DNA of 64,000 bases from Spirochaetia bacterium (GTDB lineage Bacteria > Spirochaetota > Spirochaetia > UBA9216), in NCBI GenBank assembly GCA_963677925.2, contig CAXXYH010000004.1, positions 1,120,001-1,184,000 of the forward strand, given 5' to 3'. The position numbers are program-made. Numbering within the stretch: the stretch's first letter is position 1; each line of letters opens with the position of its first letter. Below, piece after piece: positions 18,001 to 21,000 of this stretch.

Positions 18001-21000
18001 TTCGTCACAGGTCTGCTAATATAAAATAAAACGGATAAAGTATTGGCAGTTGAAATCGTTTATGAAGAAAATAATAAAATTGGTATAATTTTCCCTTTTG
18101 ATGCCCAGATTCTGGATATTGTACGCACAATACCCGGAAGACAATGGCAGCCCGCAAATAAAAAATGGACATTTCCGGATACTGATGCAAATATGCAGCA
18201 TTTTCTCTTATCATTATATAAAACCGGCAGGTTTAATGTGGATGAGAAGGCTCTCGAAAATCAGGAACCGTCTCATAGCCGCTATTTGGAAAAAATGCTT
18301 CAGTATCTAAAGCTTAGAGACTATAGTCCTCATACTATTGAAACGTATAAGATGCAGCTCAAGTGGTTCTTTGATAGAACAGAACTTTCTCCTTCAGAAG
18401 TCACGACCGAGGATATCAAATTATATCTGGAGAAAATGCGGACACTGGCGGGGTGTTCAAGAACATACTTTGTACAATGTGTGAGCGCCCTGAAAAGCTT
18501 CTATAAGTATGGTTATCCCGGCGGTCTGTTTAATCCTGCAGCATCGATTCCCATGCCGAAAAAAGAAAAGAAGTATCCGGATATTCTATCCAGGGAAGAA
18601 GTGAAGAAGATAATAACATCTCCGTCGAATATTAAGCACCGATTGCTATTATCATTAATATACTCTGCAGGTCTCCGAGTAAGCGAAGCCGTTATAATAC
18701 AGTTGCAGGATATTGATACCGATAGGAAAGTAATTCATATCAGGCAGGCAAAAGGACGAAAAGATAGATATGTAATGCTTTCAACTGAGATTATTAATAT
18801 GATTAATCAATACAGATCCAAAGTGATGGTGCATACATGGCTTTTTCCTGGCAGTGCAGGTGCGGATACCCATCTTGCTACAAGATCTGCACAGAATGCC
18901 TTTTATAAAGCTATAGAAGCAACAGGTATCGAAAAAAATGTAAGTATACATTCTTTAAGACATGCCTTTGCCACTCATCTGTTGGAAAACGGTACAGACC
19001 TGAGATATATTCAGGAGCTCTTAGGTCACCGTGATCCAAAAACAACACAGATTTATACACATGTAAGTACTAAAGACCTAAAAAATATAAATAGTCCACT
19101 GGACGGGTTATTATGAATAACAGGTTTATAAGGATTTAAGCTGGAGGGTTATATGAATGATATACCAGTTTATAATTCTGAGTTTATATGCAATGGACCC
19201 GACAAGAGGAAGACGCCCGGACCTCCGGCCGACGGGCGAAGAGACATAAAGGTGGGGGATTTTTTATGCAAGATTTATATATAAAATATAATAAGAAAGA
19301 TAATAAAATTGATTTTGGGCAAACAAAAGGCTCAATAATCGAGATTACTATAAAGCCACCTTCAATCGTTAAAGAAACAAAAGAAACAGGCATAACGAGA
19401 ATATCTGCTATTCAAGAAGATTTTGATAATCTAATTTCGGGAAAGAAGATGATTGACGTTAATAAAACGACTCTCGAACATTGTTATATCTTGGATAAAA
19501 AGGATCCTTACCGATTAGCGGCGACAAATTTTATTTTAAAAAATGAAAAGGATATTGAAGAATATAGTGAAATTCCAAAAGAAAATGATGCTGGTATATA
19601 TAAAAACTATGTAAAAGCATTTTTAGAAGAATTTACAAGATGTACGAAACACATTCCGTTTGCTGAAAAAATTAAAGTCTATCCTTTACCATTGTTGACT
19701 CCATGTAATGTGGAAGTATTAGTAGGTAAAGATGGTGTGTGCTTTATTTTCTCATCAGAAAGTAGACCTGAAAAAGTAAGTGTTTCCTTAGATATAAATA
19801 AAATAATAGAGGAACTTCTTCTGCCTCATCCTACTAATAGAAGATATTCATCATATGGACCTAATACTATTTTTAATTTTATCTGCTCAGATGAGAATTT
19901 TATACATGTGGTAGGGGATGGGAATGCGTTTTTAGATTCTATGCTAGGGAATCCAGTATTTTTGATTTTTGAAAAATCGTTTCATGGTTATTATTCCAAT
20001 ATGAATTTTATAAGAAATTATCCTGATACGGGACTTCAAGTTAAAAAGAAAGTTGAATATTGTGAAATATTTGGTAATAACCATATCTCTAACTTTTCAC
20101 TTGAAAACGCAAGGAGTAGAGCTAGGATAGTTGCGTATAAATCAATTTTGAGTAGTGTTACAGGAAATGTTAATAAAGTAGAAGAACTTAAAAATGTCTT
20201 GATAGAATTGAAAAACAAAATAAACAATGATGTCGGTGAAATAGAAATTGAGAAATTTATTGATTCAAATAAATGGATTTTAGAGAAAGGGATAGGGTGT
20301 CAAAAATATTTTTCACAAATTTCGATACCGAAAGATTTATTATATGATGCTGATGGTGGAATTAAACCTGATAAATATATGATGAATAATGACGGATATT
20401 GTGATATTTTAGATTTAAAAAAACCATCAGCCAAACTAATTGTAATAAAGAATAACCGCAGTCATCAATCTAGTTCTTTAACCGAAGCGGAGGCACAAAT
20501 TGATAAATATATTGATTTCTCTCGTGAACCAAAGGTTAGAGATTATTTATTAACGCTTAATATAAAAATTACGAAACCTGATGGAATTGTATTGATTGGG
20601 AGAACCCCGAAGGAATATTTAAAAGAATGGATTGATATAAAAAAGAGATTACAAATAAAAGTATATACTTATGATGATTTAGTTAATAATTTGGATAATT
20701 TAATTGATTGGATAGATAAGATTCTTACAATTTGAATTAAGAATCCAGACCTAACTCCGTTGAACGGTCTGGATGTCGGGTCCAAAGCATAAAACAGGGG
20801 CTATGTGTATCGTCGCTATGCGCTCCTCGGGCTGCGCCACATACGGCTACGCCGTACGTCACATAACACCGGGACGTTATGAGCAATAAGCCCGACAAGT
20901 AAAAGACGCCCGGACCTCCGGCCGACGGGCAAAGAGAGACAGTGTGATAAAATATTATACTAAAAAAGTAAATATAGAATTAAGGGTTTTCATATGAAAA

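What a model noticed while it worked through the whole genome (the two positions that open the first line are those of the whole stretch)
19216..19237. Widespread conserved hairpin at the 5' end of integron cassettes
A hairpin with a variable 6-9 bp stem and an invariant loop, G-R-CCUCCGGCCG-W (containing the anti-Shine-Dalgarno hexamer), lies 25-45 nt after the attC of 15 cassettes in both arrays. The other copies are at C4:1140909, 1141784, 1142870, 1146902, 1147843, 1151215 and 1153752 (plus strand) and C3:92987, 104515, 106173, 112525, 119199, 120813 and 125691 (minus strand). It is a new candidate cis-acting RNA or single-stranded DNA element of gene cassettes.
Evidence so far: - 15 copies, all on the cassette strand. 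- Found in 7 of 11 family genomes and 8 of 131 class genomes in three families, with the reversed control at 0. - The exact 22-mer is in 84 metagenome stretches, behind different attC types. - The stem covaries: 82.8% of cells paired against 20-40% when slid, and 0 of 500 shuffles reached the score. - A covariance-model search finds non-exact copies with compensatory changes in the core stem and the loop kept. - No Rfam match and no paper prints the sequence.
(Added by a program. Inside this text positions count along the whole contig: contig position 1,120,001 is position 1 of the stretch shown here. "Call 12" and the like, gene names such as g00115 and contig names such as C1 are that model's own, and its searches are not shown. 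The text may have been shortened before it was handed on; [...] marks where a part breaks off. The agent that wrote the report below was given it as the finding of a first reader that could run no searches.)

Follow-up and report, generated by a model that had tools for sequence, protein, structure and literature searches.

The report
Conserved hairpin opening integron gene cassettes
A short, almost unchanging GC-rich hairpin sits just behind the recombination site at the start of many unrelated gene cassettes in these integrons; it looks like an undescribed standard part of a cassette, most likely used in handling the cassette's RNA, but its job is not yet shown.

Summary
The hairpin is real. 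The window holds 9 copies and the genome 16, all inside two cassette arrays and all on the cassette strand. It also occurs in 7 of 11 family genomes, in about 15-17 of 401 class genomes, in one 330-kb array with 166 copies, and in 84 metagenome stretches behind several attC types. There is no Rfam match and no relevant paper.

- The "invariant 13-nt loop" is better read as a second 4-bp helix with one A.C pair, a UCC triloop and a free 2-nt bulge.
- The anti-Shine-Dalgarno likeness is the less conserved part.
- Covariation is limited to the outer stem pairs.

Cassettes without this hairpin carry another hairpin at the same spot, with a fully covarying stem and a loop of the form RUCCNU. So the element is the main member of a wider class of cassette-boundary hairpins.

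Function is unproven. My best guess (0.3) is a sense-RNA leader signal: a purine tract plus hairpin that marks an RNase Y-type processing and stabilising boundary between attC and the next gene. The rivals are a bottom-strand DNA accessory of attC, an antisense RNA hairpin with a GGA loop, a dedicated operator, and a hitch-hiker. The element appears novel.

The parts
19215..19237 (+). Canonical hairpin, copy 1 (the finding). Stem 1 is GCCCG/CGGGC plus an outer C-G at 19214/19238. It follows the attI-like junction at about 19184 and heads the first cassette (Shedu SduA_C-like ORF 19266-20735).
20908..20930 (+). Canonical hairpin, copy 2, exact. About 27 nt after attC R' (20871-20880).
21783..21805 (+). 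Canonical hairpin, copy 3, exact. The stem extends to 7 bp (TCGCCCG/CGGGCGA).
22869..22891 (+). Canonical hairpin, copy 4, exact. It lies behind a composite attC that holds a nested 139-nt attC.
26901..26923 (+). Canonical hairpin, copy 5, exact. The outer pair is U.G.
27842..27864 (+). Canonical hairpin, copy 6, exact. The same leader also occurs in the C3 array.
31214..31236 (+). Canonical hairpin, copy 7, with a bulge A>G. It heads a Phd/ParE toxin-antitoxin cassette.
33751..33773 (+). Canonical hairpin, copy 8. A C>T change turns the A.C into A-U. It heads a MazE/PIN cassette whose TTGACA-17-TATACT promoter-like site (33800-33828) lies after the hairpin.
40283..40305 (+). It stands before a degenerate duplicate of the MazE cassette.
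19184..19214 (+). Conserved type-A leader between the crossover (G|TT) and the hairpin. Its first part can pair with sequence upstream of R''. It ends in a purine tract (AAGAGGAAGA).
   Evidence: (family D6)
18043..19116 (+). Tyrosine recombinase at the head of the window array, co-directional with the cassettes. It has a HARP-like N-terminal piece. It scores over the cut-off for the XerA/integron-integrase model and under it for the integron-integrase model.
19184..45000 (+). Cassette array, with G+C about 0.33 against about 0.46 in the flanks. It has at least 21 cassette starts up to 40.3 kb. Nine carry the canonical hairpin and about 8 carry a UCC-loop hairpin of the second family.
32103..32124 (+). 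Example of the second hairpin family at the same leader position (8-bp stem, loop AUCCUU). A perfect TTGACA-17-TATAAT follows at 32129-32157.

Best explanation
The hairpin is a standard cis-acting module of the cassette leader that works on the sense transcript. Array transcripts run through the large attC stem-loop into the next cassette. The leader offers an unstructured purine tract rich in GA steps, directly followed by a very stable two-tier hairpin. I propose that this pair is an operon-maturation signal of the RNase Y kind. The message is cut in the purine tract. The gene is thereby separated from the attC structure upstream. The downstream product begins with a hairpin that shields its new 5' end. 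Behind the 139-nt attC type, where a promoter-like box lies 8-16 nt upstream, the same hairpin would sit at the very 5' end of a primary transcript.

Shown: position, strand, conservation, foldability, the host's RNase set, and the existence of interchangeable hairpins at the same site.
Inferred: transcription through the site, cleavage, stabilisation, and any factor that reads the conserved bases.
For: 1. The element sits between attC and the next forward ORF in nearly all copies. The ORF starts 16-142 nt downstream.
2. All copies are on the cassette strand: 166 against 0 in the largest array and 16 of 16 in G000.
3. Purine tracts flank the hairpin. Positions -9 to -2 are 85-100% A/G in 260 distinct copies.
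4. Cassettes without it carry another hairpin at the same leader position, with freely covarying stems. There are 33 on the sense strand against 1 on the other in family arrays, and 22 against 4 in G261. Stem cells count 506 Watson-Crick, 12 G.U on the sense strand and 3 A.C. A hairpin as such is therefore selected at this place, with a weak lean to the sense strand.
5. Similar hairpins close the 3' ends of cassette ORFs before attC, as expected for ends of message units.
6. The genome encodes RNase Y (705 bits, over the cut-off). No RNase J and no RNase E/G were detected.
7. Published work fits. In S. aureus an intergenic RNase Y cut needs a double-stranded element 6 nt downstream and stabilises the downstream product (PMC5449607, abstract). 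In B. subtilis RNase Y prefers G|A in weakly structured sequence with structure downstream, and the downstream hairpin sets the abundance of the product (PMC11780869, passages).
8. In 24 leaders of the 139-nt attC type, a conserved TGGGTGTAAAAT box with an upstream A-rich/TTAG box precedes the hairpin by 8-16 nt.
9. Antisense promoter-like sites are not enriched in 166 leaders: 1 at >=11/12 against 0.85 in shuffles.
Against: - No RNA data exist for this organism, so transcription, ends and cuts are all inferred.
- A structural boundary does not need 21 of 23 bases to be nearly fixed across families. Something reads the sequence, and this model does not name it.
- The inner helix carries an A.C on the sense strand that is a G.U on the antisense strand. 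As RNA the antisense strand folds 2.9-3.0 kcal/mol better and far more uniquely.
- No RNase J was found. The published stabilising effect of such hairpins against a 5' exonuclease therefore cannot simply be carried over.
- In at least 10 of 166 leaders, and in the window's toxin-antitoxin cassettes, a strong promoter-like site lies after the hairpin. There it is outside the gene's own transcript.
- No copy lies outside cassette arrays in 5 Mb. That is odd for a general RNA-processing signal.
Confidence: 0.3

Rival explanations
1. It acts as folded single-stranded DNA on the bottom strand, the strand on which attC itself is recombined. The GC hairpins on either side of attC would frame the site. 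They could keep its arms from mispairing with neighbouring DNA, hold off SSB, serve as an accessory site for the recombinase, or prime second-strand synthesis of an excised cassette.
For: - It is found only in cassette arrays.
- Its distance to R' is tight, 25-27 nt in 160 of 160 cases in G261. Its distance to the ORF start varies from 16 to 142 nt.
- In the circular cassette, attC and the leader are contiguous, so attC plus hairpin travel as one module behind unrelated genes.
- Hairpins flank attC on both sides.
- The arrays in two families are headed by a recombinase with an extra HARP-like N-terminal piece.
Against: - With DNA parameters the two strands fold equally well, -7.5 to -7.7 kcal/mol.
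- The distance to R' is not constant across attC types: about 26, about 40, about 50 and about 70 nt.
- The second-family hairpins show 12 G.T on the top strand against 3 on the bottom.
- No known integron needs such a site (review PMC8876359, passages read).
- The HARP link is a weak domain hit of 25.2 bits against a cut-off of 25.
Confidence: 0.2
2. It works on antisense RNA. Read on the bottom strand it is a compact 10-12 bp hairpin with a GGA triloop and a U/C-rich tail. It would stop antisense transcripts at cassette borders, or bind a GGA-loop reader such as CsrA.
For: - Antisense RNA folds at -14.6 and -16.1 kcal/mol against -11.6 and -13.2 for sense. One structure makes up 0.73-0.81 of the ensemble.
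- The majority A.C becomes a G.U on this strand. The variants G-C (9) and A-U (3) keep the pair.
- The tail after the hairpin reads UCUUCCUCUU, or UUUCUUCUU for the 139-nt attC type.
- The antisense strand of the 3' hairpins of the second family equals the CsrA SELEX consensus RUACARGGAUGU, a term held by 23 papers. Of 18 genomic matches to NUACANGGAUGU, 5 lie in the arrays, which make up 1.5% of the genome. All 5 are antisense and in hairpins.
- csrA is present.
Against: - Antisense promoter-like sites are not enriched in the leaders.
- The tails are C-interrupted, unlike a clear terminator elsewhere in this genome, which has a run of T.
- The canonical triloop lacks the A before GGA.
- G.U counts in the second family lean to the sense strand, 12 against 3.
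- There is no evidence that the arrays are transcribed backwards.
Confidence: 0.15
3. It is an operator on the sense RNA for one dedicated sequence-specific factor (a protein or a small RNA) that represses or activates translation of all cassettes together. The loop, which resembles the 16S anti-Shine-Dalgarno tail, might mask ribosome-binding sites.
For: - Near-fixed sequence in both helices across at least 4 families and several leader types. That is typical of protein-binding hairpins.
- The loop theme UCC is shared with the second family.
- ACCUCC matches the anti-SD core, and the cassette ORFs use Shine-Dalgarno sites.
Against: - The ACCUCC bases are among the less conserved. About 37 changes fall in that hexamer, and about 21 in the CCUCC pentamer, among 260 copies, against <=2 at the paired positions.
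- The CCCCU variant persists.
- The distance to the start codon is not fixed.
- No partner sequence was found: the complementary 10-mers in the genome are scattered coding hits.
- No candidate factor gene was identified.
Confidence: 0.15
4. It has no function of its own. It is either a small selfish palindromic element (REP-like) that inserts into purine tracts, or a piece of an ancestral leader spread by cassette turnover and kept uniform by recombination.
For: - The same 23-mer stands in unrelated leaders, flanked on both sides by similar purine words (AAGA ... GAAGA) that could be a target duplication.
- Copy number reaches 166 in one array.
Against: - It is never found outside cassette leaders in 5 Mb.
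- It always has the same orientation and the same place.
- Other hairpins replace it at the same spot.
- No Y1/RAYT transposase is present in a 99.6% complete genome.
- Variation is confined to positions predicted unpaired, while the adjacent leader varies freely. This points to purifying selection.
Confidence: 0.08

Closest known systems
RNase Y operon-maturation sites with a downstream hairpin (S. aureus saePQRS, B. subtilis cggR-gapA)
   Same: An intergenic site inside a polycistronic message. An unstructured G/A-containing stretch is followed within a few nucleotides by a stable hairpin. The downstream product is favoured (PMC5449607 abstract; PMC11780869 passages). The host has RNase Y.
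   Different: Those hairpins are gene-specific and not conserved in sequence. Here one sequence heads hundreds of unrelated genes. The host shows no RNase J. No cleavage has been observed here.
Known expression signals of integron cassettes: attC RNA stem-loops, ORF-11/ORF-17 in attI1, the cmlA leader attenuator, and the disputed aminoglycoside 'riboswitch' leader
   Same: Structured or coding signals between the recombination site and the cassette gene that change expression of the downstream cassette (review PMC8876359, passages read).
   Different: Those lie in attI1, in attC or in one particular cassette. This element is cassette-borne, lies outside attC, and is repeated at the head of many cassettes. 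A mini-ORF after it is present in only 30 of 166 leaders and varies in length.
attC recombination sites
   Same: Strand-specific imperfect hairpins of cassettes. The hairpin is adjacent to attC and co-inherited with it.
   Different: No AAC/GTT core boxes. It is 25-31 nt long instead of 57-140. It lies downstream of the crossover, so it belongs to the next cassette.
REP/BIME palindromic elements with RAYT transposases
   Same: Short GC-rich extragenic hairpins in many copies, with a conserved sequence.
   Different: It is restricted to cassette leaders, has one orientation relative to genes, and the genome has no RAYT gene.
CsrA/RsmA-binding GGA hairpins (CsrB-type repeats, SELEX consensus RUACARGGAUGU)
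   Same: Read on the antisense strand, the second-family hairpins present A-N-GGA-N loops on ACA/UGU stems. Two window copies match the 12-mer exactly.
   Different: The match is on the strand opposite to the genes. The canonical hairpin has C, not A, before GGA, and a triloop. Binding is untested.

Membership tests
Any Rfam family | Match to a curated covariance model | tested here: not met
   0 matches at E<=1 in window 17000-47000, both strands.
attC site | Paired R''/R' boxes (..AAC / GTT..) with L boxes and extrahelical bases | tested here: not met
   The hairpin has no AAC/GTT boxes. It starts 24-27 nt after R' of a complete attC.
Intrinsic (Rho-independent) terminator | GC-rich hairpin with a short loop, followed at once by a run of U | tested here: not met
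   On the sense strand purines follow the hairpin. On the antisense strand the tail is U/C mixed. The terminator scan did not call the canonical hairpin on either strand.
REP element / RAYT system | A RAYT (Y1 transposase) gene in the genome and dispersed extragenic copies | tested here: not met
   PF01797 gave 0 matches in a 99.63% complete genome. All copies lie in two arrays.
CsrA binding site | GGA in a hairpin loop within A(N)GGA, on the RNA that is regulated | tested here: inconclusive
   The antisense strand of the canonical hairpin has a GGA triloop but no preceding A. Second-family hairpins match the consensus, but only on the antisense strand. csrA is present. Binding is not testable here.
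Kink-turn / K-loop | Conserved tandem sheared G.A/A.G pairs next to a 3-nt bulge | tested here: not met
   The bases that would form the G.A pairs vary freely (position 17 G198/A32/C29; position 7 A>G 16 times).
RNase Y processing site with downstream hairpin | RNase Y present; a cut in an unstructured G/A stretch a few nt upstream of a stable helix | tested here: inconclusive
   The RNase Y gene is present. The purine tract and the hairpin geometry are present. Cleavage is not testable with these tools, and no RNA run was available.
Integron (for the surrounding array) | Integron integrase (TIGR02249 over its cut-off) beside an attC array | tested here: inconclusive
   The window recombinase scores 194.2 against a cut-off of 265 for TIGR02249, but 232.5 against 220 for NF040815. 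The second array, on C3, has a divergent integrase at 382.5 against 265. attC sites of two types are present in both arrays.

The most novel reading that the evidence does not exclude
The hairpin is the shared operator of an integron-wide control system. One sequence-specific reader recognises the same two-tier hairpin at the head of up to 166 unrelated cassettes. The whole cassette reservoir could then be silenced, processed or mobilised as one unit. A gene cassette would in that case have a third standard part besides the gene and attC.
Probability: 0.15. Interest if true: 0.85.

Novelty: new variant of a known kind. Interest (0 to 1): 0.66.

Why it matters
Gene cassettes are taught as a gene plus attC. 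Here hundreds of unrelated cassettes, in at least four bacterial families and in metagenomes, share a further conserved structured part at their 5' end. Those that lack it carry an equivalent hairpin.

This bears on two open questions in integron biology:
- How are genes deep inside very long sedentary arrays (330 kb in one genome) expressed or kept silent?
- What unit is attached to a gene when a cassette is born? The conserved module runs from a 3' hairpin through attC to this 5' hairpin.

The element gives a defined, mutable sequence with which both questions can be tested.

Tried and rejected
- RNA evidence: no RNA holder listed for window 19000-28999. Only one DNA or unknown-type run holds it.
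- Earlier findings of the scan were not open.
Only 10 of 121 matches had >=3 flanking pairs, and 6 of those were true copies, all in one record titled Spirochaetia bacterium.
- Plasmid collection: no match. Viral contigs: 0.
- Leader peptide through the hairpin: start codons are not conserved (by eye).
- Mini-ORF after the hairpin, like ORF-11: 30 of 166, lengths 1-494 codons, no constant coupling distance.
- Kissing dimer through the palindrome CGGCCG: its last base is the freely varying position 17.
- Pseudoknot of the loop with a following GAGG: present in only some leaders.
- Kink-turn: see the membership test.
- Promoter role for the hairpin itself: no hexamers fit.
- Own promoters after the hairpin: enriched but a minority. 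Ten of 166 reach >=11/12 against 0.85 in shuffles.
- IS link: the recurrent 386-aa reverse ORF in some cassettes looked, by eye and from recall with no family scan run, like a DDE transposase of an insertion sequence inserted inside cassette genes. It is not tied to the hairpin.
- Four weak covariance-model hits are ordinary small-loop GC hairpins, not copies (G085, G107, G112, G119).
- Supplementary files of papers were closed and not consulted. The supplements of the integron surveys cited might list cassette-flanking motifs that I could not see.
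Full report
OBSERVATION

At 19216-19237 the window carries the stated 22-mer. It sits inside a hairpin whose inner stem is GCCCG/CGGGC. The 10-base core occurs 7 times exactly in the window. With one mismatch it occurs 16 times, against 1.40 expected, and no shuffle in 100 reached that number.

In the whole genome (5.04 Mb, 4 contigs) 34 exact 10-mers exist. 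Fourteen of them have the hairpin context: 7 on C4 plus and 7 on C3 minus. The other 20 are scattered and have no stem. A covariance model adds a 16th, decayed copy at 40283-40305.

All copies lie in two low-G+C cassette arrays and on the strand of the cassette genes.

SETTING

The window array runs from about 19.2 to 45 kb and has at least 21 cassette starts up to 40.3 kb. Its cassettes include a Shedu-like gene, Phd/ParE and MazE/PIN pairs, and many ORFs without a family.

The array is headed by a co-directional tyrosine recombinase (18043-19116). That protein scores above the cut-off of the XerA/integron-integrase model (232.5 against 220). It scores below the cut-off of the integron-integrase model (194.2 against 265, in two stretches). 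It also has a HARP-like N-terminal piece.

The second array, on C3, has a divergent integrase that passes the integron model (382.5 against 265). Both arrays use the same two attC types.

The crossover point G|TT is where the similarity of the leaders begins, including at the attI-like junction at 19184. The hairpin therefore belongs to the 5' end of the following cassette. In a circular cassette, attC and this leader are contiguous.

Two contexts occur in this genome:
- Behind the GTTAT/GTTAG-type attC the hairpin starts 24-27 nt after R' (11 copies).
- Behind the 139-nt attC (ATTTAAC...GTTAAAT) it lies about 67-70 nt downstream (5 C3 copies). Here it is preceded at 8-16 nt by a conserved TGGGTGTAAAAT box with an A-rich/TTAG box further upstream, which is a promoter-like arrangement (24 leaders aligned).

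ANATOMY

I took 260 distinct copies from 7 family genomes, 4 other class genomes, one 330-kb array and metagenomes. The metagenome copies are exact by ascertainment. Variation is concentrated at a few positions:
- position 17: G198/A32/C29/T1
- position 7: A243/G16/C1
- positions 10-12: 21 changes
- position 15: C>T, 3 changes
- position 18: 6 changes

The other positions change in at most 7 copies, and those predicted to pair in the inner helix in at most 2. This fits a two-tier fold:
- Stem 1 is 5 fixed pairs plus 1-4 outer pairs.
- A 2-nt bulge lies on the 3' side.
- Stem 2 is GACC/GGCC with an A.C.
- The apex is a UCC triloop.

The A.C is replaced by G-C in 9 and by A-U in 3 of 150 aligned copies. 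One copy has C-G changed to U-A in stem 2.

Covariation proper is modest. The outer pairs read UA 83, GC 4, AU 2, UG 2, and CG 132, AU 5, UG 4. In the whole structure 76.8% of cells pair, against 18-38% when slid, and 0 of 500 shuffles reach the score. However, a slid control reaches a higher covariation score (0.046 against 0.035) (the similar first alignment is).

The likeness to the anti-Shine-Dalgarno tail lies in the less conserved bases. A CCCCU variant persists in 7 copies of one genome and in a second family. Folding energies alone are not remarkable for so GC-rich a piece (z from -0.1 to -2.3).

SPREAD

- Family genomes: 7 of 11.
- Class genomes by covariance model: 16 of 151 at E<=0.01, of which 4 weak hits are unrelated small hairpins.
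- Class genomes by pattern with up to 3 mismatches: 29 of 401. Sixteen genomes also hit the reversed control, so only about 15-17 carriers in at least four families are safe.
- One genome (G261) has 166 copies, all on one strand, in a single array of 330 kb. There, 160 of 193 R' candidates are followed by the hairpin at 25-27 nt.
- The exact 22-mer lies in 84 metagenome stretches, 87 copies in all. Of these, 48 are behind the GTTAT type. Twenty-seven are in other contexts: a GC-rich attC with the hairpin about 40 nt away, the TGTAAAAT type, and one in tandem with another hairpin. Twelve are at contig ends.
- None in viral contigs or plasmids.
- The only named record with true copies is titled Spirochaetia bacterium.

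A WIDER CLASS

Cassettes without the canonical hairpin are not bare. In G261, 33 R' candidates lack it (my reading of the listing):
- 21 have another GC hairpin at the same leader position, with loop GUCCU or RUCCNU.
- 4 have a further hairpin type.
- 6 are false R' hits.
- 1 is a truncated canonical copy.
- 1 is the array end.

The window shows the same pattern. These second-family hairpins have completely different stems but the same loop. They also occur at the 3' end of cassette ORFs just before attC.

They are strongly strand-specific, 33 against 1 and 22 against 4. Their stems count 506 Watson-Crick cells, 12 G.U on the sense strand, 3 A.C and 9 other. The canonical apex (CC-UCC-GG) resembles theirs.

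Hence a hairpin with a UCC-type apex, set between purine tracts, is a regular feature of cassette borders here. The finding is its most frequent and most rigid form.

WHICH STRAND AND WHICH LEVEL

Pointers to sense RNA:
- the place between attC and the ribosome-binding site
- forward ORFs 16-142 nt downstream in nearly all copies
- purine tracts on the sense strand
- the 12:3 excess of G.U
- the promoter-like box before the hairpin in one leader type
- no excess of antisense promoter-like sites

Pointers to the other strand:
- As RNA the antisense strand folds 2.9-3.0 kcal/mol better, because the A.C becomes G.U. It then has a GGA triloop and one dominant structure.
- The antisense strand of the 3' hairpins equals the published CsrA consensus. 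Five of 18 genomic matches to the relaxed form lie in the 1.5% of the genome made up by the arrays.
- With DNA parameters the strands are equal.

Pointers to an attC-centred role are the confinement to arrays and the tight spacing to R' within a leader type.

I could obtain no RNA data.

MECHANISM

I commit, at 0.3, to a sense-RNA leader signal. The purine tract plus hairpin would mark where array transcripts are cut free of the attC stem-loop. It would also give the downstream message a protected 5' end.

The host has RNase Y, and no RNase J or RNase E/G was detected. Published RNase Y sites combine a G|A step in open sequence with a helix just downstream, and they favour the downstream product (PMC5449607, abstract; PMC11780869, passages).

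What this does not explain is why 21 of 23 bases are nearly fixed. Some reader of the sequence must exist. The rivals, with their weights, are given in their own section.

COMPARISON AND NOVELTY

No Rfam family matches. The 10-mer appears only in unrelated papers. Searches on integron cassettes, stem-loops and untranslated regions, and on spirochaete integrons, gave no description of such an element.

The review PMC8876359 (passages read) lists attC stem-loops, ORF-11/17, the cmlA attenuator and the disputed riboswitch as the known signals. The element is none of these. It is not an attC, an intrinsic terminator, a REP element or a kink-turn (see the membership tests).

I rate it a new variant of a known kind, namely a conserved cis-acting hairpin in an intercistronic leader. 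The bolder reading, an integron-wide operator, is kept open.

LIMITS

- All functional statements are inferences from sequence.
- Many copies are related by descent, so counts are not independent events.
- Metagenome copies were found by exact match.
- The class samples are draws, not the whole class.
- The classification of leaders and of the 33 exceptions in G261 is partly by eye.

Noticed in passing
window 24124-24139, 24982-25005, 26730-26757, 31042-31068, 32103-32124, 33598-33628, 38594-38613: A second family of cassette-border hairpins. The stems are fully variable and the loops conserved (RUCCNU or GUCCU). They stand at the 5' leader in place of the canonical hairpin, or at the 3' end of cassette ORFs before attC. 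Some carry a tandem UC/UC internal loop.
   Followed up: partly
window 26730-26757 and 24982-25005 (minus strand); G000:C3:88965, 106530, 109110: Read on the strand opposite to the genes, the 3' hairpins match the CsrA SELEX consensus RUACARGGAUGU. Two window copies match 12 of 12. Five of 18 genomic matches to the relaxed form lie in the arrays, which are 1.5% of the genome. csrA is present once, at C4:2339507-2339662.
   Followed up: partly
window 20745-20772, 21617-21644, 22477-22504, 23718-23745, 27589-27616, 29109-29136, 31935-31962, 34482-34509: A third conserved hairpin in 8 copies (CCAGRCC ... GGTCTGG, with CUCCG in its loop). It lies about 16-20 nt upstream of attC R'', at the 3' end of cassettes.
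   Followed up: no
window 22607-22745, 23849-23987, 25130-25269, 29243-29382: A complete 139-140-nt attC (ATTTAAC...GTTAAAT) lies nested inside the variable part of four attC sites of the other type. A promoter-like TTGAGA-18-TAAAAT with TG follows (for example 22773-22802).
   Followed up: partly
window 18043-19116; L193:6782-7801: The recombinase heading the window array is Xer-like. It scores under the integron-integrase cut-off and the match splits in two stretches. It is co-directional with the cassettes and has a HARP-like N-terminal piece of about 75 aa. A 38%-identical homologue heads the 330-kb array of G261. The genome's integrase that passes the integron model sits at C3:128199-129458, divergent from the other array.
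   Followed up: partly
G261:C1:1850163-2180019 (L193-L210): A single cassette array of about 330 kb with about 190 attC sites, in a contig of 3.93 Mb. That is about 8% of the contig and among the largest arrays I know of (the comparison is recalled, not tested).
   Followed up: partly
window 20774-20800 with 20881-20900, and the other attC sites folded: The attC stem seems to extend 7-15 bp beyond the R''/R' boxes (for example GTCGGG with CCCGAC). The first part of the next cassette's leader would then pair with the end of the previous cassette.
   Followed up: no
window 32129-32157, 33800-33828, 30501-30529: Toxin-antitoxin cassettes carry perfect or near-perfect TTGACA-17-TATAAT sites between the leader hairpin and the start codon. 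In G261, 5 of 166 leaders have 12/12 matches against 0 in shuffles.
   Followed up: yes
L151 (reverse strand) about 5503-6661; also L152 and L038: A 386-aa reverse ORF recurs inside cassette genes of two genomes. By eye and from recall it looks like a DDE transposase of an insertion sequence. No family scan was run on it.
   Followed up: no
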